Positions 19,366 through 61,910 of a DNA stretch of 64,000 nucleotides are shown piece after piece. Origin of the DNA: Nitrospirota bacterium (GTDB lineage: Bacteria; Nitrospirota; Thermodesulfovibrionia; Thermodesulfovibrionales; SM23-35); the NCBI GenBank assembly GCA_040756135.1, contig JBFLZS010000006.1, forward strand, positions 16,173 to 80,172. Reading direction: 5' to 3'. The position numbers and the translations under genes are program-made. The stretch's first letter is position 1, and the number at the start of each line of letters is the position of its first letter. The notes under the pieces are model-generated. The model was not told where the DNA came from, searched no databases, and saw nothing but the letters and a program-made list of their open reading frames with translations.

Positions 19366-21489
19366 TCAAACCTTTAATAAATCTCCTGCAAAATTAATAA
19401 AATCTTCATCTTTCGGAAACTTTCCTACCCATTTGGCAAAGAATTTAACCCTGTTTTTCCAGTTTTCATCAGAGACGTCCTCTCCAAAAAATGTCTCTTT
19501 ATAATTAAATGCAAGGCAATCAGGAAGATATCTGACCTTGATATTCAATTCTTTTGCCTTAAGACATATGTCAGGTTCTATCAGATGGTTGGCTATTTCT
19601 TCATCAAACCGTCCGATGGATTCGAATATTTTGCGGCTCATGGCAATAAACCCTCCGCCTACTGCATCCCTGTAGTTTTCATCTGAAAATCCCCCCATCC
19701 CCCCTTTACCAAAGGGGGGTGAGGGGGGATTATTTTCATTTCCCTTTGCGTCTCTTTGAGACATGAATGTTTCATTGTCTGTGTTCTGTGCTCTATACTC
19801 TATGTTCTGTATTTTATACGGCGTAAAATTGAAATCATACCCGATTCCAAGGCAGTAAGGAGTCATATCAGGATTCTTTAGCGGTAGACCAGCCACGCTG
19901 TTTTCAATTCCGTCAAGCAGGCCCTCATCCTTGAAATAGACTATGCCAGGCCTCAAAAAGATAAGGTATTCGCCTGATGCTGCCTCAGCCCCTTTGTTAT
20001 ATAGCAATGAAAGATTGTGTCCCTCTGCATCGACAATCTGCATATCACCTGAGATACCGGAAAGCATCCCCTTTATATTTTCATCATTTACTACAATCAC
20101 TACCTCCCAGTCAGGATATTTGACATTTTGGGATAAGGAAGTAAGAGTTGCAAGAAGCACTTCAGCATCGTCCCCTGATGGGATAATAAAACTTACCCGT
20201 CCTGAGATATGCTCTTTGCTCTTTGCCCTTTGCTCTTTGCCCCTTGTCCCTTGCCCCTTGCCCCTTGCAGGCTGGCGGCTTTCGAATATATATTTCATTA
20301 TATCTATTGCCCTTTCTATAGCCTTGCCATCAAGTCTATAAAATGATTTTCGGAGGTATTCCTTAATATTGTTCCCGATATGAGGCGGCACCCCTTCTTC
20401 AATTGTTCTATAAAGATTTGCCCAATTTCCAAGGGGCGACACAGATTGCGCTACTCCCATATCAACATAGTAGTCTTTAGTACCGTCCCTGCTCGGTAAT
20501 GCAAAAAGAGGCCTTCCAAAGGCAAGTGATTCAAGGGCAAGGGTGGTTTTACCGAGGGTGACACAGTAGTCAGCAATAGCAAGGAGGCTGTATGGATCAT
20601 ATGTATAAAGCATAATGGATTCCGGTGAAAGATCCTTTATTATTCCCTCTGCCTTTTGATATGTCCCTAATAATGCATTGGGATGCCATTTAAATATAAA
20701 TATTATTTCGTTATTTGTACCTTTAAAGAACTCGAACCATACCCTTTTGTCTATAACTGCTGCCCATTCAAGATCTAATAATACTACAACAATCTTTTTC
20801 CCCGCAGGTATTCCAAGCTCTTCCGTTACCCTTTTCTTATTTAATGGATTAGAATATGTTTTAATTGCATTGTCAAGATGGGTATTGCCTATAAATATCA
20901 GCTTGTCAATAGCACTTTTATGGCTGCCGAGCATATCCCTCGAGGCCTCTCCCCAGATAAGGTCGGCAGTTGAGTATTCTGTATGGGCGCTAAAACTCAA
21001 CCTGCTTTCATGATAATCCCCTTCCTGAAAAGTTACATAAGGAATCCCATATTTAGCTGCAAGATGTCCTGTCAGTTTACCCCACCTGTTTCTTTCGTGG
21101 AGGGCAATAAACAGATCAGGCAACTCCTTTTCAATAAACCTTTCCAGACAGAAATATTCCTCAATTGCAGCGTTAAAAAATCTGCTCTGCTCAAAAAGCG
21201 ACCAGTGACGGAATCCATCCCATTTAAAGCATCTCGATTTCCAGATATCAAGCAGCCGGGACAATGTGCTGTCTATTTTTTCCGCCGTAACATTGTCCAT
21301 ATAGTCAGTGAGATATCTAAACTTCTGGCCATTTTTAATCAGATCTCTTTCAAAAGGGTAATCGGCCATTGTAAGAAAGAATATCACTTCGGCCCCCCTT
21401 TTCCTGGCCTCTAATGCAACAGGCATCAGAAATTTTGTATGATGGGGCAGTGCTATTAAACAGGCGATCCTTTTCCTTTTCAGATTCAT
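19366..21489 (-). CDS. Bifunctional glycosyltransferase (N-terminal GT-B-like plus C-terminal GT2) with repeat-derived inserts
   Basis: IGNTHLD, KWHP, TLALESLAFGRP; VSFIIPS, YPDWEVVIV, NKGA, IGRFDEE. Confidence 0.75.
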   Translation of the reverse strand: MNLKRKRIACLIALPHHTKFLMPVALEARKRGAEVIFFLTMADYPFERDLIKNGQKFRYLTDYMDNVTAEKIDSTLSRLLDIWKSRCFKWDGFRHWSLFEQSRFFNAAIEEYFCLERFIEKELPDLFIALHERNRWGKLTGHLAAKYGIPYVTFQEGDYHESRLSFSAHTEYSTADLIWGEASRDMLGSHKSAIDKLIFIGNTHLDNAIKTYSNPLNKKRVTEELGIPAGKKIVVVLLDLEWAAVIDKRVWFEFFKGTNNEIIFIFKWHPNALLGTYQKAEGIIKDLSPESIMLYTYDPYSLLAIADYCVTLGKTTLALESLAFGRPLFALPSRDGTKDYYVDMGVAQSVSPLGNWANLYRTIEEGVPPHIGNNIKEYLRKSFYRLDGKAIERAIDIMKYIFESRQPARGKGQGTRGKEQRAKSKEHISGRVSFIIPSGDDAEVLLATLTSLSQNVKYPDWEVVIVVNDENIKGMLSGISGDMQIVDAEGHNLSLLYNKGAEAASGEYLIFLRPGIVYFKDEGLLDGIENSVAGLPLKNPDMTPYCLGIGYDFNFTPYKIQNIEYRAQNTDNETFMSQRDAKGNENNPPSPPFGKGGMGGFSDENYRDAVGGGFIAMSRKIFESIGRFDEEIANHLIEPDICLKAKELNIKVRYLPDCLAFNYKETFFGEDVSDENWKNRVKFFAKWVGKFPKDEDFINFAGDLLKV
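19677..19775. mobile_element. In-frame CCCCT-type composite element bounded by TTTCAT direct repeats
   Basis: 93-bp spacing between the TTTCAT copies; related copies at 39384-39494 and 57776-57887 share the CCTTTGnGTCTCTTTGAGACATGAATGTTTCATT tail. Confidence 0.75.
20211..20268. repeat. Heptamer tandem array inside the GT linker
   Basis: (GCTCTTT/GCCCCTT)n, encoding ARGKGQGTRGKEQRAKSKE. Confidence 0.75.
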
Positions 21490-39383: not shown

Positions 39384-39494
39384 TTTCACCTGAAAATACC
39401 TCAAATCCCCCCTAACCCCCCTTTTCTAAAGGGGGGAGGGGGGATTACAAATTTTTATCATCCTTTGAGTCTCTTTGAGACATGAATGTTTCAT
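39384..39494. mobile_element. CCCCT-type composite element
   Basis: AATCCCCCCTAACCCCCCTTTTCTAAAGGGGGG..GGGATT plus the GTCTCTTTGAGACATGAATGTTTCAT tail. Confidence 0.78.
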
Positions 39495-44639: not shown

Positions 44640-44661
44640 TTAAAATACCTCAAATTGTTTA

Positions 44662-44755
44662 TAGTAATCTCCCCTAACCCCTCTTTAAAAAAGAGGGGAA
44701 TATTTGAGTTCTTAAAAGTCCCCCTTTAATAAAGGGGGATAGAGGGGGATTACTA
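44662..44755. repeat. CCCCT-type double palindrome between flgI and flgJ
   Basis: TAGTAATCTCCCCTAACCCCTCTTT..AAAGAGGGG..CCCCCTTT..AAAGGGGGATAGAGGGGGATTACTA. Confidence 0.75.
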
Positions 44756-44762
44756 AATTTCA

Positions 44763-45950
44763 TTATATAATCTCCAGTTCAGCTTTCAGTGCTCCTGATG
44801 CCTTTAATGCCTGAAGGATAGAAATTATGTCTCTGGGAGTTACACCCAGAACATTTAAGCCCTTCACTATCTCTCCGAGTGTGACGCCTGAGACCTGGAT
44901 AAGTGATGCTTTTTGTTCCTTTACAGTAACCTCTTTTTTCGGAACTACTACGGTTTCAGCCTTTTCAGGTGCAAAAGGCGGCGGTTGAGAAACCTCATAC
45001 TCTGTCTTAATCTCGATTGTGAGGTTCCCATGAGCAATAGCAACAGGAGAAATCCTGACCTTATCTCCGATAACAACTGTCCCGGTCCTTTCGTTTATCA
45101 CAACAATTGCTGGCACATCAACAGATACATCAATCCCCTCTACAAGTGTTATAAATTCAACAATCCTGTTCGAATATTCTGGAGGTATCCGCAACTTAAC
45201 GGCAGAGGGGTCTATGGTTGAGGCATAATTGGAGTTTAATTCTTCATTTATTTTCTTTACAATACCTGCAGCAGTAGTAAAATCAGGCCTTTTTAAGAAT
45301 ATCTTTATTTCATTCCCGCTGCCGAGGACAAAAGGGACATCCTTTTCTATAATGACACCCTCCGGGATTTTCCCTGTCGTCGGGTGGTTCTTTTGAATGG
45401 TTGTGCCCCCTCCACCTCCCACGAAACCACCGATAGAGACAGGACCCTGAGCAAGGGCATATACCTTGCCATCAGGGCCCTTTAAGGGGGTGAGAAGGAG
45501 GGTGCCACCTTGGAGACTCTTAGCATCTCCAAGAGTTGATACCAGGGCATCGATCCTGGTACCAGGCTTGGGGAAAGGAGGCAGTTTTGATGTAATCATC
45601 ACTGAAGCAGTATTTTTAGCCTTTATATCATTTGGTTCAACTGTTAAACCCATTCTCTGGAGCATATTTGCGATACTCTGCATGGTAGCAAGACCTTTAT
45701 CTCCTGAACCATCAAGGCCTACGACAAGACCGTATCCGATAAGCTGATTCTCTCTCACCCCTTCGAAAGTAGCAATATCCTTTATCCTCTCAGCACGAAC
45801 AACAGTAGACAGTAAACAGTGAATAGTGAATAGTAGAAAGACAGTAATAACTAATGAGTAACAAATCCCCCCACGCCCCCCTTTGCTAAAGGGGGGTAAG
45901 GGGGGATTTGACTTTTGACTTTTGACTTTTGACTTATTTAGAATGGCCAT
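44763..45950 (-). CDS. flgI: Flagellar P-ring protein FlgI (signal peptide built from repeats)
   Basis: RIKD, NQLIGYGLVVGLDG, GDAKSLQGG.LL.TPL, NERTGTVV, LQALK.SGAL.AEL. Confidence 0.97.
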   Translation of the reverse strand: MAILNKSKVKSQKSNPPLPPFSKGGRGGICYSLVITVFLLFTIHCLLSTVVRAERIKDIATFEGVRENQLIGYGLVVGLDGSGDKGLATMQSIANMLQRMGLTVEPNDIKAKNTASVMITSKLPPFPKPGTRIDALVSTLGDAKSLQGGTLLLTPLKGPDGKVYALAQGPVSIGGFVGGGGGTTIQKNHPTTGKIPEGVIIEKDVPFVLGSGNEIKIFLKRPDFTTAAGIVKKINEELNSNYASTIDPSAVKLRIPPEYSNRIVEFITLVEGIDVSVDVPAIVVINERTGTVVIGDKVRISPVAIAHGNLTIEIKTEYEVSQPPPFAPEKAETVVVPKKEVTVKEQKASLIQVSGVTLGEIVKGLNVLGVTPRDIISILQALKASGALKAELEII

Positions 45951-46675
45951 ATGTTATCCAGTATCTTTACAAGCCAGCCTTGACCCTGTTTGTCCTGAAT
46001 GATTCCGTCTCCTACAAAAAAGACCTGTGCATCTGCTATCCTGGTGCTCAATACTGTATTATCCACCTCAATATCATCGGGTCTAATCATGCCTTTCAAT
46101 ATGAGTATCTGTTTTTCATTGTTAATAGTTATTTCTTTCCTTGCCTCAAGGACAAGATTATTGTTAGGCATCACTTCAACAACCTTTGCCGTAATAGTTC
46201 CTACGAGTTTTCCTTCCCGTGTTGTTTCACCGCTGCCTTTGAAATCACTCTGGGCAGAACCTGCTACTTCAGGTGAAAACGTATAACCTTTACCATAAAA
46301 ATTATCCAGATTGAGGTTGAGAGGCGCACCCAAAAATTTATCTACTCCGACATCGAGTGAGGATTGCTTGCTTGTGTTGGTATCTGCCTTGCCTGATCCC
46401 GTTATATTTTCTACAACCTTGATAGTCACGAGGTCATTGAGTCTTCTTGCTTTTACATCCTCATAGAGGCTTGCTGTATCACGCCAAAGAGAGTTCGTTG
46501 AAAACTTTTCTTCTCTCTCCACCTGGTGCACATATTTTGGAGGAGGTGCAGGAAGATCTTTTGTTGTAGCGCACGCAGAAAAGAGAAATAGGGCATGGAG
46601 CATAGAGCATAGAGCACATGCTTTCTTTACTTTTTCGCACTTAGCTCCTTGCTCCTTGCTCTTTGCTCTTTGCAT
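45938..46675 (-). CDS. flgH: Flagellar L-ring lipoprotein FlgH
   Basis: Lipobox FSAC, D.KA...D.VTI, V..V.PN.NL, IRPDDI, QGWL..WPF; ATG 46675. Confidence 0.95.
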   Translation of the reverse strand: MQRAKSKEQGAKCEKVKKACALCSMLHALFLFSACATTKDLPAPPPKYVHQVEREEKFSTNSLWRDTASLYEDVKARRLNDLVTIKVVENITGSGKADTNTSKQSSLDVGVDKFLGAPLNLNLDNFYGKGYTFSPEVAGSAQSDFKGSGETTREGKLVGTITAKVVEVMPNNNLVLEARKEITINNEKQILILKGMIRPDDIEVDNTVLSTRIADAQVFFVGDGIIQDKQGQGWLVKILDNIWPF

Positions 46676-46676
46676 C

Positions 46677-47528
46677 TTATAGCCCCACCTTGATAGTATT
46701 CTCATTTATGAGAAGTCCTTTGACTATTTTTTTGGAGGCAAGATTTATCGCTTTTACAAGCTTACCAACAGTGCTGTCTTCTTTCATTTCACCGATTGCG
46801 GCGATCTTTAAACCTTCGGACTCAACTAAAAGAGTTACTCTTTGTCCTTTTTTCACCACGGATGTTTCACTTACCATGCCTGAACTCAGTGGCATATTCG
46901 CAATGATTGAACGCAGCAAAGGTTTTCCTATAACCTTCTCAATATCTTTGTCTTTTAAGGCGCCATTCGGTATCTTTCGAACATCCATAAGCACCGTATA
47001 CACATCATCTTCCTGAAGATAATAGCCCTTTTTGAATGCCCTTCTGCTTACGAGGATATGATCGTATGCCTTGATATTGGCAGTTGCTGTTATTTTCTTG
47101 CCATCTTCAAACTCCAGAACAAAGATTGTCTTTCCAGGAGGAGACTTTTTTATCATAATCTTCTCAATTTGTTTTCCGGGCATTTCGTTATTCACAGTAA
47201 GGTTATTTATATCGATCTCAGACCATGGATAATTGTTTCTGAGATATTCTTTCAGCACATCTTCAATACCCTGAGAAGAGGAAAATGCAATAGGAACAGA
47301 AAAAAACGATGCTGAAACCAATATGACAAGAACTGAGGATATTATTACCCAAATTGAGCGATTTTTTCGTGTCATTCCAAGCCCTTCGCTCTTTGTCATT
47401 CCGAGCGAAGCGAGGAATCTTACTGCTTTCTGATAAAGATTCCTCACACCCTTCGGGTGTTCGGAATGACAAATAAAACAAGACTTTTTGATAGAATCGC
47501 TCAATCTAGGTATTAAGATTTTGTTCAT
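46677..47528 (-). CDS. flgA: P-ring assembly chaperone FlgA (55-codon element in the signal peptide)
   Basis: SAF-like region, VKKGQRV, I.A.GE, VKAINLASKKIV; located between flgG and flgH. Confidence 0.88.
   Translation of the reverse strand: MNKILIPRLSDSIKKSCFICHSEHPKGVRNLYQKAVRFLASLGMTKSEGLGMTRKNRSIWVIISSVLVILVSASFFSVPIAFSSSQGIEDVLKEYLRNNYPWSEIDINNLTVNNEMPGKQIEKIMIKKSPPGKTIFVLEFEDGKKITATANIKAYDHILVSRRAFKKGYYLQEDDVYTVLMDVRKIPNGALKDKDIEKVIGKPLLRSIIANMPLSSGMVSETSVVKKGQRVTLLVESEGLKIAAIGEMKEDSTVGKLVKAINLASKKIVKGLLINENTIKVGL
47346..47512. mobile_element. TA-flanked composite palindromic element in frame in flgA
   Basis: IR TACCCAAATTGAGCGATT / AATCGCTCAATCTAGGTA; GTCATTCCGAGCGAAGCGAGGAATCT...AGATTCC..GGAATGACA cargo; TA-to-TA distance 165 bp. 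Confidence 0.85.
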
Positions 47529-47538
47529 GACAGTCCCT

Positions 47539-48327
47539 TTATTGTTTCAGGCTATTCGCAATCTGAAGCATTTCATCAGATGCCTGTACAGCCTTTGAAT
47601 TAATCTCATATGCCCTTTGACTGATAATCATATTCACCATCTCTTCAACGATATTCACATTACTCATTTCTATGTAACCCTGTGCAATGGTGCCGAGACC
47701 TTCTGTATCAGGGTTACCTGTTGTTGCCTCGCCTGAGGCAGCAGTAGGGGAAAACAGGTTTTTGCCAAGCGCCTTGAGACCGCCTGGATTAATGAATCGT
47801 GCAAGTTCTATCTGTCCAATTTCGGTTGGCGTAGTAGTGCCTTCCTGAGTCACTGAGACTTTCCCGTCTGAACTGACTGTTATGCTCAGTGTATCTGCTG
47901 GTATGGTAATGCCGGGTTCCAAAGGATAACCGTCTGAATTAACAACACGGCCTTCGCTGTCAAGTTTGAATGCACCTGACCTTGTATAAGCGATTTCTCC
48001 ATTAGGCATTGTTACCTGGAAGAATCCATCGCCTTCAATGACAAGGTCAAGATTGTTGCCTGTTTGCGTAAAATCTCCCTGTAAGAATAATTTCTGGACC
48101 GCAACAGGCTTTACTCCGAGACCCATCTGAATTCCTGATGGTATCTGAGCACCTTCAGCAGATACAGCACCAGGCGTTCTCAAATCCTGATAAAGTAATT
48201 CCTGGAAATCTGCCCTGCTCTTTTTAAACCCGACCGTGTTCACATTAGCAAGGTTGTTGGAAATGACATCCATATTGAGCCTCTGGGCCTCCATGCCTGT
48301 TGCTGCTATGAATAAAGACCTTAACAT
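47539..48327 (-). CDS. flgG: Distal rod protein FlgG
   Basis: [38 protein letters not shown]. Confidence 0.97.
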
Positions 48328-54932: not shown

Positions 54933-57032
54933 TTAACTCTGCCCGTTAATTTCGCTCCAGAGGATGCTGCGATTTCTTCCTGTTCTCTTTGCGTGATACA
55001 ATGCCTTATCAGCCCTTTCAATAAGTTCCTCTTTTCTTTTACCATCATCAGGGCATGTAGATATCCCGATGCTGACAGTAACCCTAAAGGTTTTATTTTC
55101 AGCAGAAAACGTTTTATCCATCACGGCCTTTCTTAACCTCTCCGCCATATTCAACGCACCGCGTGCTCCTGTGTTCAAAAGGATTACCGCAAACTCTTCA
55201 CCACCATACCTGGCAGAGATATCAATATTTCTTATGGTTTTTTTGATCACATCTGCAACAGCCTTAAGCACCGAGTCCCCTACCGGATGACCATAGGTGT
55301 CATTTATATCTTTAAAGTTGTCTATATCTAAAATAAGTATTGACAGGGGCTCAGAGAACCTCTCAAGGCGACTGAATTCCTGTGATAGTCTTTCCTGGAA
55401 GTGTCTGTGGTTGAAGATGCCTGTAAGCCCGTCTGTTATGGCCAGCCTTTCTATCTCCGCATGAAATCTTGCATTTGCAATGGATGTTGACGCCTGATTA
55501 CCTAAGACCTCGAGAAGCTCGATCTGGTAAGGGTTTAATGCATTCGTTTTCTCTGAAAGGAATGTAAGTATGCCTAAGAGATCCTTCTCATAAAGCAGTG
55601 GCAGTGCAAAGACAGAGCCTATATTATCTGTTTTGAAAGGCATGATTGGAGCACGATAATCTCTAACATCGGAAAGATAGAAAGGCTCCTTATTTTTCAC
55701 TACTATATCGAGTAAAGTGCCCTTAAGATTAAAAACCTTCTTCTCACGAGGTGGCAGTCCTATCTGATGTAATATCTCGAATTCCTTCCCTTTTGCCATA
55801 AAGAAGATAATCTCTGAGGCTACAATCCTATATGCACCTTCTATCAAGCTTTGTACTATAACATCCACATCGAGTGATGTGAGCAGTTTTGAACTCTCTT
55901 CATTCAAAACCTTCAAAGTGGTATAAGAACGATATATCTGTGGATAGACACGTTCTCTACGGAGTATCCTCATAATCTGTTTTGAGAACATCTGAAGTGT
56001 ATCGCTATCAGCAGTGGTGAATGCATGAAACCTCGCACTGTCAGCAACCACAACGCCGAGCGGGAAGTTACCATCCATCACAGGCACTGCAACTAAAGAA
56101 GAAAACTTGTCTTTCTTTAGATAGCCAACGTCAATTTTTTTTCTACCTATATCGGATAAAATAAGAGGTTTTTTATCTTTAATGCAGAAATATATAAGAC
56201 CCTCATCCGAAGGTATGATGCCGTCTGATTCCTCTGTGGAACATCTCAATCTCAGGCTACCACCTGAACTCACGAAGAGATTTACAGAATCAGCGAATAT
56301 AATATTTTTTGCAACCATGAGGAGTTCTTTAATCTCCTCATCTGGTCTAAACATAGATCCAAGATAATGAGATATACCCTTTTCATCACTAAAAGACTTT
56401 ATCTCATCTAATCCCGCCGTCCCTTCTTTAAAATCCCCCTTTAGTCCTCCTTTAATAAATAATCCCACCTCACCCCCCTTTAGTAAAGGGGGGATGGGGG
56501 GATTATCTCTTTGCAAAAAAGGGGTAGGGGATTTGTTTGTTTTTTTCATCTTGTCTTTAAGGAACAAAGATAGGATTGCAGTTGAGGCAAGAAATACAAT
56601 AAATGTTATTTCTTCAATGAGTTTTTCTCCATTCATAAAATTACTCAGCTCAAGAAAAGGGATTAATAGCAATAGAGAGACTATGGTTTTTAGTCCATAG
56701 AATGCTGTTAGATATAAAATAAACGGGAAATAGACCATTCTGAGCCAGGGTATGGCAAATGCCTGTGCTGAACCTGCAATGAGCATCAGGAGAGAGAAGA
56801 GGAATTCAATAGAATAGTTCTTATCTTTTCTTAATATATAGAGGATGACATAGAGAAAAATTGTAGAAGAACTGAAGAGGAACCAGAGGCCCCTTCTCTT
56901 TAAAGGAAATTCCAAGAGCAGTCCAAGATAGGTGAGAAAGAGAAGTAAAAAAGGGATGCCCCTTTTTAACCAGAGGCCCTGCCTCTTTTTACCTCCTCTT
57001 CCTTGAAGAATTTCCTGTACAGGATTTCCCAC
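54933..57032 (-). CDS. Membrane-bound GAF-GAF-GGDEF diguanylate cyclase
   Basis: N-terminal TM helices, two GAF domains, TDGLTG..N, RYGGEEF; start uncertain. Confidence 0.9.
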   Translation of the reverse strand: MGNPVQEILQGRGGKKRQGLWLKRGIPFLLLFLTYLGLLLEFPLKRRGLWFLFSSSTIFLYVILYILRKDKNYSIEFLFSLLMLIAGSAQAFAIPWLRMVYFPFILYLTAFYGLKTIVSLLLLIPFLELSNFMNGEKLIEEITFIVFLASTAILSLFLKDKMKKTNKSPTPFLQRDNPPIPPLLKGGEVGLFIKGGLKGDFKEGTAGLDEIKSFSDEKGISHYLGSMFRPDEEIKELLMVAKNIIFADSVNLFVSSGGSLRLRCSTEESDGIIPSDEGLIYFCIKDKKPLILSDIGRKKIDVGYLKKDKFSSLVAVPVMDGNFPLGVVVADSARFHAFTTADSDTLQMFSKQIMRILRRERVYPQIYRSYTTLKVLNEESSKLLTSLDVDVIVQSLIEGAYRIVASEIIFFMAKGKEFEILHQIGLPPREKKVFNLKGTLLDIVVKNKEPFYLSDVRDYRAPIMPFKTDNIGSVFALPLLYEKDLLGILTFLSEKTNALNPYQIELLEVLGNQASTSIANARFHAEIERLAITDGLTGIFNHRHFQERLSQEFSRLERFSEPLSILILDIDNFKDINDTYGHPVGDSVLKAVADVIKKTIRNIDISARYGGEEFAVILLNTGARGALNMAERLRKAVMDKTFSAENKTFRVTVSIGISTCPDDGKRKEELIERADKALYHAKRTGRNRSILWSEINGQS
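56430..56535. repeat. Nested CCCCT palindromes in frame in the DGC linker
   Basis: Encodes KSPTPFLQRDNPPIPPLLKGGEVGLFIKGGLKGDF. Confidence 0.75.
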
Positions 57033-57775: not shown

Positions 57776-57887
57776 TTTTACCTAAAAATACTCAAATCCC
57801 CCCTAACCCCCCTTTTCTAAAGGGGGGTTAGGGGGGATTACAAATTTTCATCGTCCTTTGTGTCTCTTTGAGACATGAATGTTTCAT
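57776..57887. mobile_element. CCCCT-type composite element between ssb and rpsR
   Basis: Near-identical to 39384-39494. Confidence 0.8.
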
Positions 57888-60323: not shown

Positions 60324-61910
60324 TTAAAGGTTCAGTCTAACAGGAAGCCGGCCTTTAAAATCTTCTTCTCCCATTAAACACTTTATGACAGCCTTTTGTG
60401 CCTGCTCTGTCGCATCGTATGCAGCAACAAGAATATCAGCCGCATTAAAATCGCGTAAAACGTAGGGGCTTCCAAAGGAGATGACAATGGAATTTTTCGC
60501 ATCTTTGATAAGTTCATTAATCCGATCCTTTTCATTCCCCGAACTCCCCTTCCACGCAGCTATGCTTGTAAATATGGCAAATGTAACTGTGCCATCTAAC
60601 GATCGCAACCTATCCTCCTTTAAAATCCCCTCTTGCCCCCCTTTTCCAAAGGGGGGTGAGGGGGGATTTGAGTCATTAATTATAGAGACGTCCTTGAAAT
60701 AACTCCTGAAAGGGGATGAATCAAAAAATTTATCGTCACCTGCAAGTACGACATGAATCTTGCTTTCATCTAAAATTGGCAGTAGACCAGGTGTACTTTT
60801 TACAAGTGTTACAGACATAGCAGTAACTTGTGATGAAAGCATTTTGTGCCTTTGATAATCAATCTTACCTCCCTTTAATTCCCCCCTTTCTAAGGTGGTA
60901 GTTGTATTTAGAAGGTTTACCTTTGTCTTTAAAATTCGCTTTACTGCTGCATCTATCTGTTCCCGGGCAATATCTTTTGATTCAACTGCGTATAGTATTT
61001 CCTTAACGGTCAGATCAACATTCAAAGGGTGCAACAATATATCAGCCCCTGCCTTTATGCATTTTACGGGGACATCTTCGATGTTTTTCAGGGCATTCAT
61101 ATTCAGGGCATCAGTTAGTATTAGACCATCAAATCTTAGCTTTTCCCTCAATATGCCGGTAATTATCTTCCCTGACAAGCTTGCAGGTTTATAATCAATG
61201 GCCGGGATACTCAGATGTCCAATCATGATACTGCTGACCCCGGTATTAATAGCCTCTTTAAATGGCAATATATCTACACTCATTAAATCATCATAAGATT
61301 TATCTATAACGGGAAGTGAGATATGGGAATCTATGGCTGTGTCTCCATGTCCTGGAAAATGCTTGGCACAGCTTATGAGTCCTGAATTCTCTAAAATTCC
61401 TATATATTGTGAGCCAAACCATGCCACATCTTCGGGATCGTCAGAGAATGCCCTCGTACAGATAATCGGGTTATCAGGATTTAGATTTACATCCAGAACG
61501 GGGATGAGGGGCATATTTATTCCTATATCCTTCACTTCATCTGCTATAGCCTTTATTGCATACTGGAGGATTGAAACATCTTCAGGTCTATCTTTATCAA
61601 TTGCTGCTGCCAGAGCCATCTGGCATGGGAATATGGTGCTATCCTTTATTTGCTGTCCCACCCCATGTTCGATGTCCGATGCAATAAAAAGGGGTATCTT
61701 TGATATTGACTGGATTTTATTAATAAAATACTTTATTTCGTCTTTTTTACCACCAAAGACTATAAATCCACCGATACCCTTTTTTACGAGTTCGAAAATC
61801 TTTTCCTGATAAGACCCCGAATGGATACCCTCTCCATCAAGCCTGCCTATAATCAATTGATATATTTTTTTTTCTAAAGTATTTGGGGCAGGTATATAAT
61901 TAGTTGGCAT
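60324..61910 (-). CDS. nagZ: Beta-N-acetylglucosaminidase GH3 (NagZ) with C-terminal domain
   Basis: D.E.G, PVLDVN..P.NP.I..R.F, KHFPGHGDTAIDSH, TDAL, G.LPV; start uncertain (track start 61964 lies in a repeat arm). Confidence 0.9.
   Translation of the reverse strand: MPTNYIPAPNTLEKKIYQLIIGRLDGEGIHSGSYQEKIFELVKKGIGGFIVFGGKKDEIKYFINKIQSISKIPLFIASDIEHGVGQQIKDSTIFPCQMALAAAIDKDRPEDVSILQYAIKAIADEVKDIGINMPLIPVLDVNLNPDNPIICTRAFSDDPEDVAWFGSQYIGILENSGLISCAKHFPGHGDTAIDSHISLPVIDKSYDDLMSVDILPFKEAINTGVSSIMIGHLSIPAIDYKPASLSGKIITGILREKLRFDGLILTDALNMNALKNIEDVPVKCIKAGADILLHPLNVDLTVKEILYAVESKDIAREQIDAAVKRILKTKVNLLNTTTTLERGELKGGKIDYQRHKMLSSQVTAMSVTLVKSTPGLLPILDESKIHVVLAGDDKFFDSSPFRSYFKDVSIINDSNPPSPPFGKGGQEGILKEDRLRSLDGTVTFAIFTSIAAWKGSSGNEKDRINELIKDAKNSIVISFGSPYVLRDFNAADILVAAYDATEQAQKAVIKCLMGEEDFKGRLPVRLNL
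60622..60669. repeat. In-frame CCCCT palindrome in nagZ
   Basis: Encodes SNPPSPPFGKGGQEGI; a second remnant near 60866-60900 encodes LERGELKGG. Confidence 0.75.

What the first reader, a model, noticed from the sequence alone, without database searches (positions are those of the whole stretch)
45801..47528. Signal peptides of three consecutive flagellar genes (flgA, flgH, flgI) are invaded or built by repetitive DNA
Seen: flgA carries a TA-flanked 165-bp (55-codon) composite element. Removing one TA plus the element restores a textbook signal peptide, MNKILIIISSVLVILVSASFFSVPIAFS. The FlgH signal peptide (MQRAKSKEQGAK..ACALCSMLHALFLFSAC) is encoded by an inverted pair of heptamer arrays (46590-46673). 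The FlgI N-terminus is (AAAGTCA)n plus a CCCCT palindrome (NPPLPPFSKGGRGGI) plus an (ACTATTC/ACTGTCT)n array that encodes the hydrophobic h-region. Known: Rickettsia palindromic elements insert in frame into proteins. Inference: cleaved signal peptides act as a safe harbour, and heptamer arrays can write de novo export signals (the purine-rich strand gives a K/R/Q-rich n-region, the complementary array a hydrophobic h-region).
Basis: partly seen in the sequence, partly recalled or inferred. Interest (0 to 1): 0.82.

Follow-up and report, generated by a model that had tools for sequence, protein, structure and literature searches.

The report
Repeat DNA builds flagellar signal peptides
In this sediment-type Nitrospirota bacterium the export leaders of three neighbouring flagellar proteins really are made of, or interrupted by, repetitive DNA, and this is one case of a genome-wide habit in which seven-base repeats and a small palindrome pile up in the disposable leader part of exported proteins.

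Summary
The genes are flgA, flgH and flgI (Pfam) of a Thermodesulfovibrionales MAG.

- **flgA:** it carries a 163-bp MITE. The target duplication is 5 bp (TAATA), not TA. The 168 added bases stay in frame. Strains about 92-94% identical, in contigs of three public runs, have the empty site.
- **FlgH:** its leader holds two heptamer arrays. Contigs of two runs replace this stretch with 23 other bases.
- **FlgI:** its leader is array, then palindrome, then array. No other in-frame start exists before the mature domain.

Genome-wide, 296 heptamer arrays occur against 10 in a simulated genome. They are about 11-fold denser in predicted signal-peptide codons than in other coding DNA (38 against 4.4 expected, p=2e-24). 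The palindrome has 182 copies, 134 of them inside genes. It is 4.6-fold enriched in leaders, but most copies lie elsewhere in proteins.

Pyrimidine-rich arrays read as hydrophobic cores and purine-rich arrays as basic or polar stretches (rho=-0.84). In 21 of 44 related FlgI genes an array lies at the same place.

My reading is that cleaved leaders are permissive sinks for selfish or slippage-born repeats. Phase variation, start-site artefacts and RNA hairpins are weaker rivals. This is a new variant of known kinds (Rickettsia RPEs, Neisseria opa leader repeats).

The parts
46677..47528 (-). flgA (P-ring chaperone) with the longest start
   Evidence: ORF. Pfam ChapFlgA 79.8 bits (cut-off 23.8) and SAF.
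47348..47510 (-). 163-bp MITE inside the flgA leader codons, between codons 6 and 63. Termini are CCTAGATTGAGCGATT... / ...AATCGCTCAATTTGGG.
   Evidence: One search gives the coordinates. One search shows 30-nt arms, 80% complementary. One search shows a family of 11 paired copies. Only this copy lies in a real gene, and only the flgA frame of its six frames is open. One search shows it absent from related strains.
47511..47515 (-). Upstream copy of the 5-bp target-site duplication (TAATA on the gene strand)
   Evidence: TSD 5 for C6:63520-63682.
47343..47347 (-). Downstream copy of the 5-bp target-site duplication
47373..47375 (-). ATG inside the MITE (flgA codon 52). It would give the leader MTRKNRSIWV plus the intact hydrophobic core. 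AAGGG lies 6 nt upstream, and AAGGG also lies upstream of the native ATG, 6 nt away.
   Evidence: One search lists the in-frame starts. Its use is inferred, not shown.
47280..47342 (-). Original flgA hydrophobic core and cleavage region (ISSVLVILVSASFFSVPIAFS)
   Evidence: Translation. The heuristic puts the signal-peptide end at residue 83. The same residues follow the empty site in relatives.
45938..46705 (-). flgH (L-ring lipoprotein). Possible starts are at 46705 or 46675. The lipobox Cys codon is at 46571-46573.
   Evidence: Pfam FlgH 185 bits. Starts.
46644..46673 (-). Purine-rich heptamer array (GCAAAGA/GCAAGGA on the gene strand), encoding QRAKSKEQGA of the FlgH n-region
   Evidence: TRF (4.3 copies, 95%). 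Translation.
46588..46616 (-). Pyrimidine-rich heptamer array (TGCTCTA on the gene strand), encoding ALCSMLHAL of the FlgH hydrophobic core. It is the reverse complement of the other array apart from one base per unit.
   Evidence: TRF (4.1 copies, 86%). Hairpin. Contigs of two runs replace 46589-46671 with 23 nt.
44763..45950 (-). flgI (P-ring protein). The leader is codons 1-53 (45792-45950).
   Evidence: Pfam FlgI 453 bits from residue 55. Codon 1 is the only in-frame start before codon 65.
45907..45935 (-). Perfect (AAAGTCA)x4 array encoding KSKVKSQKS of the FlgI n-region
   Evidence: TRF (4.1 copies, 100%).
45862..45910 (-). G6/C6 palindrome (AAT-C6..C6-TTT..AAA-G6..G6-ATT) read as NPPLPPFSKGGRGG
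   Evidence: 23-nt arms, 87%. It is one of 182 copies genome-wide. It is absent from all 43 other FlgI orthologues read. It is present in relatives about 91% identical.
45801..45835 (-). Pyrimidine-rich heptamer array (ACTATTC/ACTGTTT/ACTGTCT) encoding LLFTIHCLLSTV of the FlgI hydrophobic core
   Evidence: TRF (5.0 copies, 82%). Homologous cores (LLFTVYCLLST, LLFTVHCSLFT) occur in relatives.

Best explanation
Three classes of repetitive DNA that are abundant in this Thermodesulfovibrionales genome have settled in the leader-peptide codons of flgA, flgH and flgI. At least in flgH and flgI they are translated as part of leaders that are later cut off.

**(a) flgA.** A non-autonomous transposable element (MITE, 163 bp, 5-bp target duplication) inserted recently after codon 6.
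- It survives because the 168 added bases keep the frame, and the one open frame of the element is the flgA frame.
- It also supplies an internal ATG plus basic residues directly before the untouched hydrophobic core.
- A usable leader can therefore be made by read-through or by internal initiation.

**(b) flgH and flgI.** Heptanucleotide tandem arrays encode the leader itself.
- Three units make 21 nt, so an array gives a peptide with a 7-residue period.
- Pyrimidine-rich arrays read as L/F/C/T/S/V-rich hydrophobic cores.
- Purine-rich arrays read as K/S/Q/E/R-rich n-regions.

**(c) flgI.** A 44-45-nt G/C palindrome, read as NPPxPPFxKGGxGG, sits in the n-region.

**Mechanism (inferred).** Arrays arise and turn over by slippage. 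The palindrome and the MITE spread as selfish elements. Selection removes copies whose translation harms a protein. Leaders need only charge followed by hydrophobicity and are then removed. They therefore tolerate, and can be rebuilt from, such DNA, and they accumulate it.
For: **Identity of the genes**
- Pfam.

**flgA element is a MITE**
- Terminal inverted repeats.
- 11 paired copies plus 31 solo termini.
- A 5-bp duplication in 6 of 11 copies, and 6 bp in one A-run copy.

**Recent insertion**
- One contig in each of three runs, 92-94% identical in flgA, bridges 47342 to 47538 with 31 other letters. These read as a short normal N-terminus.
- None of the roughly 50 orthologues carries an insert.

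**Frame filter**
- Of the 11 copies, only the flgA copy has a length plus duplication divisible by 3.
- Only its flgA frame is open.

**Arrays are translated**
- flgI has no alternative in-frame start before codon 65.
- The FlgH and FlgI hydrophobic cores are array-encoded.

**Genome-wide pattern**
- 296 arrays against 10 simulated.
- 38 of 177 coding arrays lie in predicted leader codons against 4.4 expected (p=2e-24).
- Density is 50 per 100 kb in leaders, 4.7 in other coding DNA and 24.8 in intergenic DNA.
- Repeats of period 8, 10 or 11 give 2 against 2.2 expected.

**Not circular**
- 19 of the 31 genes concerned have, above the curated cut-off, Pfam families typical of periplasmic, outer-membrane or pilin proteins. 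Examples are TonB receptors, BamA, PBP5, SurA, multihaem cytochromes, HlyD, M23, SpoIID and prepilins.

**Code rule**
- Purine fraction against hydropathy gives rho=-0.84.
- 25 of the 38 leader arrays are hydrophobic.
- Of 13 hydrophobic arrays outside called leaders, 10 start within the first 70 residues.

**Palindrome**
- 182 copies, 134 in genes, 106 of them read as PPxPP[FL]x[KR][GE].
- 14 lie in leaders against 3.3 expected (p=7e-6).

**Lineage-wide**
- A period-7 array lies in the 160 nt before the mature start in 21 of 44 FlgI, 8 of 37 FlgH and 4 of 37 FlgA genes of Nitrospirota-like relatives.
- The counts are 0 of 33, 0 of 20 and 0 of 10 in other phyla.
Against: - Gene calls and signal-peptide calls come from my own simple programs, not from Prodigal or SignalP. 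Arrays can themselves create the hydrophobic stretch that my rule scores. The Pfam check covers only 19 of 31 genes firmly. Two more are membrane-anchored or commonly periplasmic, 3 are ambiguous repeat proteins, 6 have no family above cut-off and 1 was not scanned.
- Array density in leader codons is higher than in intergenic DNA. For the best arrays it is 29 against 3.7 per 100 kb. A pure tolerance model does not predict this. It hints at positive selection, a mutational bias, or copying of leader cassettes.
- Replication failed for lack of power. In 400 kb of a same-family genome there were 7 arrays, 1 in a leader (p=0.18). In 400 kb of the closest named relative there were 14 arrays, 1 in a leader (p=0.16), no palindrome and no MITE terminus.
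- No expression or protein data exist. Nothing shows which flgA start is used, or that the long leaders are exported and cleaved.
- No parent transposase with the MITE termini was found.
- No Y1 transposase gene lies next to a full palindrome, 0 of 6.
Confidence: 0.72

Rival explanations
1. The heptamer arrays are phase-variation switches (contingency loci). The unit is not a multiple of three, so gain or loss of one unit by slipped-strand mispairing would shift the frame in the leader. This would turn envelope proteins, including the flagellar rings, on and off, as CTCTT repeats do in Neisseria opa leaders.
For: - The unit length is 7.
- The arrays lie at the 5' end of genes for surface or exported proteins.
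- The FlgI n-region array is perfect over 4.1 copies.
- The opa precedent was read as a passage in PMC3960869.
Against: - Arrays are short (143 of 296 have 4 copies and only 22 have 6 or more) and mostly imperfect.
- They occur in genes that are essential in model diderm bacteria (BamA, LptE), and in TolB and SurA.
- Contigs of relatives about 91% identical cover the FlgI arrays with no indel. Contigs cannot show rare variants.
- Among the 49 arrays within 100 nt upstream of a called start, I saw no exported gene left out of frame. This was by eye only.
- The array differences seen between strains keep the frame (83 nt against 23 nt).
Confidence: 0.08
2. The repeats are not coding. The true starts lie downstream, the repeats are 5' untranslated or intergenic DNA, and they look coding only because the reading frames happen to stay open.
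For: - For flgA, an ATG at codon 52 inside the MITE is preceded by AAGGG. It would give a normal 32-residue leader.
- My gene caller always takes the longest start. Some 5' arrays are clearly upstream of real starts, for example rows 18, 41, 45 and 58.
Against: - flgI has no in-frame start between codon 1 and codon 65, which lies inside the Pfam domain.
- In flgH the only start after the arrays (codon 35) leaves MLHALFLFSAC, with no charged n-region.
- In both genes the hydrophobic core is array-encoded, and both proteins must cross the inner membrane. That is established knowledge of the P and L rings.
- The same holds for TonB receptors, BamA, PBP5 and cytochromes c.
- Only one of the six frames of the flgA MITE is open, and it is the flgA frame.
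Confidence: 0.1
3. The repeats are kept for a function at the RNA or DNA level. Inverted arrays and the palindrome would form hairpins just after the start codon that tune translation initiation, coupling within the flgA-flgH-flgI operon, or mRNA stability. The peptide they encode would be a by-product.
For: - The FlgH 5' region folds with the two arrays paired (z=-2.9; 1 of 200 shuffles folds as well).
- The FlgI 5' region folds with z=-4.6 and no shuffle as good. This is driven by the palindrome.
- Repeat density in leaders exceeds the intergenic density.
Against: - The flanks of the 179 palindromes tested are no more complementary than mismatched pairs (mean 13.3 against 13.4 of 35).
- In the 8 genes with a purine-rich array followed by a pyrimidine-rich one, unit complementarity is not significantly above shuffled pairings (4.88 against 4.39 of 7, p=0.10; with G-U pairs p=0.09).
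- Hydrophobic arrays are confined to N-terminal cores. That is a protein-level constraint.
Confidence: 0.1

Closest known systems
Rickettsia palindromic elements (RPEs), selfish DNA inserted in frame into protein-coding genes
   Same: - A palindromic repeat family is found many times inside unrelated, mostly housekeeping genes.
- It is always read in frame as a conserved peptide.
- Here there are 134 genic copies of 182, and 106 read PPxPP[FL]x[KR][GE].
- RPE facts come from passages of the review PMC10969869: about 150 bp, 44 insertions in R. conorii.
   Different: - The element here is much shorter, at 44-45 nt against about 150 bp.
- It is G6/C6-rich.
- The host is a free-living anaerobe of another phylum.
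- Copies inside genes are about three times more numerous than the 44 quoted for R. conorii.
- Sequence relatedness to RPEs was not tested and is not expected.
- A 4.6-fold excess in leader peptides does not appear in the passages I read.
Neisseria opa CTCTT coding repeats in the leader peptide
   Same: Tandem repeats whose unit is not a multiple of three lie in the 5' gene region that encodes the leader peptide (passage in PMC3960869). That they form its hydrophobic part is recalled, not in the passage read.
   Different: - opa repeats are long perfect pentamer tracts that vary at about 1e-3 per generation and switch the gene on and off.
- The arrays here are 3-7 copies, mostly imperfect, and lie in essential genes.
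- They have the same length in relatives about 91% identical.
- They look like stable building material, not switches.
Bacterial MITEs with intragenic, in-frame insertions (ERIC, BOX, Anabaena MITEs)
   Same: The flgA element has inverted termini, a target duplication, several copies, no coding capacity of its own and an empty-site polymorphism. The review states that in-frame fusions by intragenic MITEs are not unusual (PMC10969869).
   Different: - The insertion lies inside a signal peptide, between the n-region and the hydrophobic core.
- The element supplies a possible new start and a basic n-region.
- 'Signal peptide' does not occur in that review (0 occurrences).
- No parent IS was found here.
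Cyanobacterial STRR (short tandemly repeated repetitive) heptamers
   Same: Dispersed short tandem arrays of many different heptanucleotides. That STRRs are heptamers is recalled. The term was found only in search listings, and I read no STRR paper.
   Different: - As I recall them, STRRs belong to heterocystous cyanobacteria and are mainly intergenic.
- Here 177 of 290 arrays are inside genes and are translated.
- The host is a flagellated Nitrospirota bacterium.
REP elements mobilised by RAYT (Y1) transposases
   Same: A small G+C-rich palindrome in high copy number. The genome has 6 Y1_Tnp matches.
   Different: - 74% of copies are inside genes, so they are not extragenic.
- No GTAG or CGTC tag stands at the ends. 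The ends are AAT...ATT in 94-96% of copies.
- None of the 6 Y1 genes has a full palindrome within 1.5 kb.

Membership tests
MITE (miniature inverted-repeat transposable element), for the flgA insert | Short, with no transposase gene of its own | tested here: met
   163 bp. Other copies are 123-201 bp.
MITE (miniature inverted-repeat transposable element), for the flgA insert | Terminal inverted repeats | tested here: met
   30-nt arms, 80% complementary. The shared terminus CCTAAATTGAGCGATT is present on both ends of 11 copies.
MITE (miniature inverted-repeat transposable element), for the flgA insert | Target-site duplication of fixed length | tested here: met
   5 bp in 6 of 11 paired copies, including flgA. 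One copy in an A-run has 6 bp, one has 2 bp and three have none.
MITE (miniature inverted-repeat transposable element), for the flgA insert | Presence/absence polymorphism (empty site) | tested here: met
   One contig in each of runs X1, X2 and X3 joins 47342 to 47538 across 31 other letters that encode a short normal N-terminus.
MITE (miniature inverted-repeat transposable element), for the flgA insert | An autonomous IS with the same termini in the genome | tested here: not met
   No pair of termini 0.5-4 kb apart encloses a transposase-like ORF set. The one pair found, on C7, is a chance pairing in my reading. The draft assembly has 172 contigs, so absence is weak.
RPE-like in-frame palindromic element, for the FlgI palindrome | A palindromic repeat inserted in frame in many unrelated genes and read as a conserved peptide | tested here: met
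   134 of 182 copies lie in called genes, and 106 of 134 share one reading. Coding copies favour one length class (75 of 134 against 9 of 48, p=8e-6).
RPE-like in-frame palindromic element, for the FlgI palindrome | Sequence homology to a Rickettsia RPE family | not tested
   No RPE sequence was available from a tool. The sizes differ (44-45 nt against about 150 bp), so I claim analogy only.
Phase-variable simple-sequence contingency locus | Copy-number variants that shift the frame among close strains or reads | tested here: not met
   Contigs of relatives about 91% identical span the FlgI arrays without indels. The FlgH difference keeps the frame. Contigs drop rare variants, so this is weak.
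Phase-variable simple-sequence contingency locus | A long, perfect repeat tract | tested here: not met
   The four arrays have 4.1-5.0 copies at 82-100% matches. Genome-wide, only 22 of 296 arrays have 6 or more copies.
Sec-type signal peptide (FlgI, FlgA) and lipoprotein signal peptide (FlgH) | A charged n-region, a hydrophobic core, and a small-residue cleavage site or a lipobox Cys | tested here: inconclusive
   All three pass my heuristic rule: FlgI ...VRA|E, FlgH ...FSA|C, FlgA ...AFS|S. SignalP, LipoP and any experiment were unavailable.
REP/RAYT system | Palindromes clustered around a Y1 (RAYT) transposase gene, and extragenic | tested here: not met
   None of the 6 Y1_Tnp genes has a full palindrome within 1.5 kb. 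74% of copies are genic.

The most novel reading that the evidence does not exclude
Leader peptides in this lineage behave as exchangeable, repeat-built cassettes.
- The whole flgI leader region runs from a heptamer array through the palindrome, a non-repetitive spacer and a second array to the V-x-A cleavage site.
- It is homologous at the DNA level to the leader region of an unrelated M16 peptidase gene. Similarity stops within a few bases of the codon of the cleavage site.
- Leader density of good arrays is about 8 times the intergenic density.

This fits a process that copies or regenerates export signals from heptamer arrays. Such a process would be a lineage-specific generator of signal peptides. 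It could convert proteins between cytoplasmic and exported states and rebuild leaders quickly after damage such as the flgA MITE hit.
Probability: 0.2. Interest if true: 0.85.

Novelty: new variant of a known kind. Interest (0 to 1): 0.64.

Why it matters
Signal peptides are usually treated as degenerate but ordinary coding sequence. Here about 5% of predicted leaders (31 of 660 genes) are made from tandem seven-base repeats. The same genome tolerates a 15-residue palindrome-encoded peptide in more than 130 proteins, many of them core enzymes.

If confirmed, this would matter in several ways.
- It gives a natural experiment on how little information a leader needs.
- It suggests a route by which selfish or slippage-born DNA becomes functional coding sequence.
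- It extends the Rickettsia 'selfish DNA in genes' phenomenon to a free-living Nitrospirota lineage.

There is also a practical point. Such repeats distort start-codon calls, signal-peptide prediction and protein clustering in metagenome-assembled genomes of this group.

Tried and rejected
- **One long hairpin element.** I tested whether array, palindrome and array form a single long hairpin. The 35-nt flanks of 179 palindromes are no more complementary than mismatched pairs (13.3 against 13.4). Only 21 of 179 have a heptameric flank. Rejected as a general structure.
- **Inverted pairing as a rule.** I tested whether n-region and core arrays are generally inverted complements. In 8 genes the result is not significant (p=0.10; with G-U pairs 0.09). 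It holds for flgH only.
- **Parent IS for the MITE.** None found.
- **RAYT link for the palindrome.** None of 6 Y1 genes is adjacent to one.
- **Target duplication for the palindrome.** Only the AT/AT that is part of its own AAT...ATT ends.
- **Replication in other genomes.** I took 400 kb each from G001 and G013. They hold too few arrays (7 and 14) to test enrichment (p=0.18 and 0.16). G013 has no palindrome and no MITE terminus in that stretch.
- **Bias of intergenic arrays.** 49 lie on the 5' side and 47 on the 3' side of genes, within 100 nt. There is no bias.
- **Sequencing runs.** No run held half or more of the words of the stretch, and the best share was 0.12. I therefore name no source sample or habitat. 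Parts of the stretch without cover are not used as evidence.
- **Literature.** Eight full-text searches returned no paper describing heptamer arrays or in-frame palindromes in Nitrospirota or Thermodesulfovibrionia, or heptamer-built signal peptides. I read only passages of PMC10969869 and PMC3960869. All other papers were seen as listings only. Supplementary files were not consulted, and subscription journals are not in the library.

Full report
**What is there**

The window is G000:C6:16173-80172, from a 3.51-Mb draft genome of 172 contigs with 40% G+C. Four consecutive minus-strand ORFs are flgG (47539-48327), flgA (46677-47528), flgH (45938-46705) and flgI (44763-45950). All four match the corresponding Pfam families above the curated cut-offs. 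The FlgI domain starts at residue 55. The nearest FlgI relatives are metagenome-assembled genomes labelled Thermodesulfovibrionales or Nitrospirota. The best is 84% identical.

**The repeats at the stated coordinates**

- TRF reports period-7 arrays at 45801-45835, 45907-45935, 46588-46616 and 46644-46673.
- The repeat finder reports a palindrome with 23-nt arms at 45862-45910, and 30-nt inverted termini at 47339-47368 / 47490-47519.
- On the gene strand the FlgI leader reads MAILN-KSKVKSQKS-NPPLPPFSKGGRGG-ICYSLVITVF-LLFTIHCLLSTV-VRA|ERIKD. That is a perfect array, then the palindrome, a spacer, a second array and the cleavage site.
- The FlgH leader reads (MRILSRWGYK)M-QRAKSKEQGA-KCEKVKKAC-ALCSMLHAL-FLFSA|C.

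**flgA: a MITE, and a recent one**

- The insert is 163 bp (47348-47510).
- Its termini, CCTAAATTGAGCGATT and the complement, define a family of 11 paired copies of 123-201 bp, plus 31 solo termini.
- Six of the 11 copies have a 5-bp target duplication, including flgA (TAATA on the gene strand).
- The interior holds a nested inverted repeat. It also holds a roughly 50-nt motif found about 28 more times in the genome.
- All other paired copies are intergenic, or overlap only short ORFs that lie within the element. None of them has a length plus duplication divisible by three.
- In the flgA copy only one of the six frames is open, and it is the flgA frame.

Contigs of public metagenome runs were laid on the region. 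One contig each in X1, X2 and X3, about 92-94% identical in flgA, joins 47342 to 47538 across 31 other letters. Read on the gene strand these give M-K-N-K-I/F-L-A, followed by ISSVLV.... This is an empty site. About 50 orthologues also have short ordinary leaders with no insert.

The present gene can make a leader in two ways.
- Read-through from the native ATG gives an n-region of about 61 residues with net charge about +9, by my count from the translation.
- Initiation at the ATG of codon 52 inside the MITE gives MTRKNRSIWV plus the old core. AAGGG lies 6 nt upstream of this ATG. AAGGG also lies upstream of the native ATG, 6 nt away.

Which route is used is not shown.

**flgH and flgI: the arrays are translated**

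- flgI has no in-frame ATG, GTG or TTG between codon 1 and codon 65. Its hydrophobic core is array-encoded.
- flgH has starts at codons 1, 11 and 35. The last would leave only MLHALFLFSAC.
- Contigs of two runs replace 46589-46671, which holds both arrays, with 23 letters. These read on the gene strand as LCIFFLLI... before FLFSAC, a net loss of 60 nt that keeps the frame. This suggests that the upstream ATG at 46705 is the functional start. It also shows that array content turns over between close strains.
- The FlgI composite, in contrast, is covered without indels by contigs of relatives about 91% identical (X2 record 10, X3 record 14). The palindrome peptide is nevertheless absent from the 43 other FlgI orthologues read.

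**Genome-wide context**

I called 3598 genes with my own hexamer-based caller, giving 87% coding. I classed N-termini with a hydropathy and motif rule: 562 Sec-like, 86 lipoprotein and 12 prepilin.

The genome has 296 period-7 arrays of at least three copies, from 134 distinct units. A second-order Markov simulation has 10.

After merging overlaps, 290 arrays remain:

| Region | Arrays | Density per 100 kb |
|---|---|---|
| Predicted leader codons (75.8 kb, 2.2% of the genome) | 38 | 50 |
| First 50 codons of non-exported genes | 21 | 4.8 |
| Other coding DNA | 118 | 4.7 |
| Intergenic DNA | 113 | 24.8 |

- Among the 177 coding arrays, 4.4 were expected in leaders (binomial p=2e-24).
- With stricter arrays (at least 4 copies, at least 80% matches) the counts are 22 against 2.6 expected.
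- Tandem repeats of period 8, 10 or 11 give 2 against 2.2. Repeats of period 6, 9 or 12 give 8 against 3.4.

My rule could be fooled by array-made hydrophobic stretches. I therefore scanned 30 of the 31 genes concerned against Pfam.
- 19 carry families that by themselves indicate envelope location. These are:
  - three prepilins;
  - two TonB-dependent receptors;
  - BamA, FlgH and FlgI;
  - PBP5 and SurA/PpiC;
  - three multihaem cytochromes;
  - an outer-membrane channel;
  - SpoIID, FecR, HlyD and M23;
  - a BamD/YfiO-like lipoprotein.
- Two are membrane-anchored or commonly periplasmic (ATP synthase b, M16 peptidase).
- Three are TPR or NHL repeat proteins.
- Six have nothing above cut-off.
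- One was not scanned.

TolB and LptE, missed by my rule, also carry leader arrays.

**The code rule**

Across 171 coding arrays, purine fraction on the coding strand and mean hydropathy of the encoded peptide correlate at rho=-0.84.
- In leaders, 25 arrays are hydrophobic (purine fraction 0.23) and 10 are hydrophilic (0.76).
- Outside called leaders, 81 are hydrophilic and 13 hydrophobic. Ten of those 13 begin within the first 70 residues of proteins my rule had classed otherwise.

Hydrophobic readings are therefore almost confined to N-terminal cores or membrane segments. Hydrophilic readings occur in n-regions and in loops of cytoplasmic enzymes.

**The palindrome**

- A pattern for the C-run/G-run palindrome finds 182 copies: 97 internal to genes, 31 in the first 60 codons, 6 near 3' ends and 48 intergenic.
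- 106 of the 134 genic copies are read as PPxPP[FL]x[KR][GE].
- Hosts appear to include core enzymes. I judged this from the flanking peptides and did not check it against Pfam.
- Per base, the palindrome is 4.6-fold denser in leader regions than in other coding DNA (14 against 3.3 expected, p=7e-6). Leaders of pilin-like proteins are prominent among these. Still, 120 copies lie elsewhere in proteins.
- Its ends are AAT...ATT in 94-96% of copies, and no longer duplication is seen.
- Coding copies favour a 38-nt core (75 of 134 against 9 of 48 intergenic, p=8e-6). This is consistent with a frame filter.
- The behaviour resembles Rickettsia palindromic elements (passages of PMC10969869).

**Spread among relatives**

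I looked in the 160 nt before the mature start of each gene.

| Gene | Nitrospirota-like relatives with a period-7 array | Other loci |
|---|---|---|
| FlgI | 21 of 44 | 0 of 33 |
| FlgH | 8 of 37 | 0 of 20 |
| FlgA | 4 of 37 | 0 of 10 |

- The window is included in the counts for the relatives.
- I grouped the relatives by record label and similarity rank, not by a formal taxonomy.
- Units differ between genomes, while the encoded cores stay similar (LLFTVHCSLFT, LLFTVYCLLST). Array-built FlgI cores are therefore old and are kept homogenised.
- The heavy load is not universal. 400 kb of a same-family genome has 7 arrays and 2 palindromes.
- 400 kb around the flg genes of the closest named relative has 14 arrays, no palindrome and no MITE terminus.
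- Enrichment could not be retested there (p=0.18 and 0.16).

**Mechanism and rivals**

- **Best reading (0.72).** Leaders are permissive sinks, and sometimes products, of slippage-born arrays and selfish elements. These are filtered by frame and by the hydropathy of their translation.
- **Phase variation (0.08).** This is suggested by the unit length and by the opa precedent (PMC3960869). Against it are short imperfect arrays, essential host genes, equal lengths in close relatives and frame-preserving differences.
- **Start-site artefact (0.10).** It fails for flgH and flgI but remains open for flgA.
- **RNA-structure function (0.10).** It has local support (z=-2.9 and -4.6) but no general support.

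One fact is not explained by simple tolerance. Leader codons are denser in good arrays than intergenic DNA is (29 against 3.7 per 100 kb).

A second fact points the same way. The whole flgI leader region aligns with that of an unrelated M16 peptidase gene, through a non-repetitive spacer (about 72% identity over 146 nt). Similarity ends within a few bases of the cleavage-site codon. This keeps open the bolder idea that leader cassettes are copied between genes.

**Verdict**

The finding is real. It is a local window onto a genome-wide and partly lineage-wide phenomenon that I did not find described in eight literature searches. It is best filed as a new variant of known kinds: in-frame selfish repeats and coding repeats in leader peptides. 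All functional statements rest on sequence analysis. No expression, export or proteomic evidence was available.

Noticed in passing
Window 19687-19731, 56461-56504 and 60623-60671 (inside genes); 39407-39443 and 57798-57836 (intergenic): Further copies of the same G6/C6 palindrome lie in this window. Three are read in frame inside long genes and two are intergenic. They are among 182 copies genome-wide, of which 134 are genic. Coordinates were converted from C6 by subtracting 16172.
   Followed up: partly
Window 44660-44751, between the flgI stop and the next gene: Two more palindromes of related type (C5..C5-TTTATTAAA-G5 and CCCCTCTTTTTTAAAGAGGGG) lie directly downstream of flgI. Contigs from many organisms pile up here (summed depth 136-241), so the motif is widespread in those metagenomes.
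   Followed up: no
G000:C5:20407-21810 (locus L082), 5' end: The leader-coding region of an M16 peptidase gene is homologous to that of flgI over about 150 nt. The match covers array, palindrome, non-repetitive spacer, array and the V-x-A site, and diverges within a few bases of the cleavage-site codon. This suggests copying of a whole leader cassette between unrelated genes.
   Followed up: partly
Genome-wide, e.g. G000:C107:1423-2163, C11:20304-21338, C15:21411-23660, C25:42766-43971: Purine-rich heptamer arrays are read in frame as K/S/Q/E/R-rich inserts inside proteins whose N-termini look cytoplasmic. 81 hydrophilic arrays lie outside leaders.
   Followed up: partly
Window 47392-47473 (interior of the flgA MITE) and about 28 other places in G000: A roughly 50-nt motif, read in flgA as ...RFLASLGMTKSEGLGMT and itself holding nested inverted repeats, recurs about 28 times in the genome. 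It occurs inside several other MITE copies. Its nature was not studied.
   Followed up: no
Genome-wide palindrome copies: Coding copies favour a 38-nt C-to-G core (75 of 134). Intergenic copies favour 39 and 37 nt (22 and 10 of 48). For the 38-nt class, Fisher p=8e-6. This looks like a frame filter on insertions, but the exact insertion boundaries are unknown.
   Followed up: partly
G000:C62:4536-4862, C41:25682-26008, C34:2656-2991, C35:30009-30338, C75:801-1124, C38:21562-21780: There are six matches to the Y1 transposase family PF01797 (five clear, one at the cut-off). None has a full palindrome within 1.5 kb.
   Followed up: partly
G000:C28:525-23512 and C36:5090-12469: Leader arrays cluster. 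Eight genes in a 23-kb stretch of C28 carry them (cytochromes c, a SurA-like protein, an NHL protein and lipoproteins). Three consecutive genes on C36 also do (a SurA_N-like protein, BamA and a 1325-residue protein).
   Followed up: no
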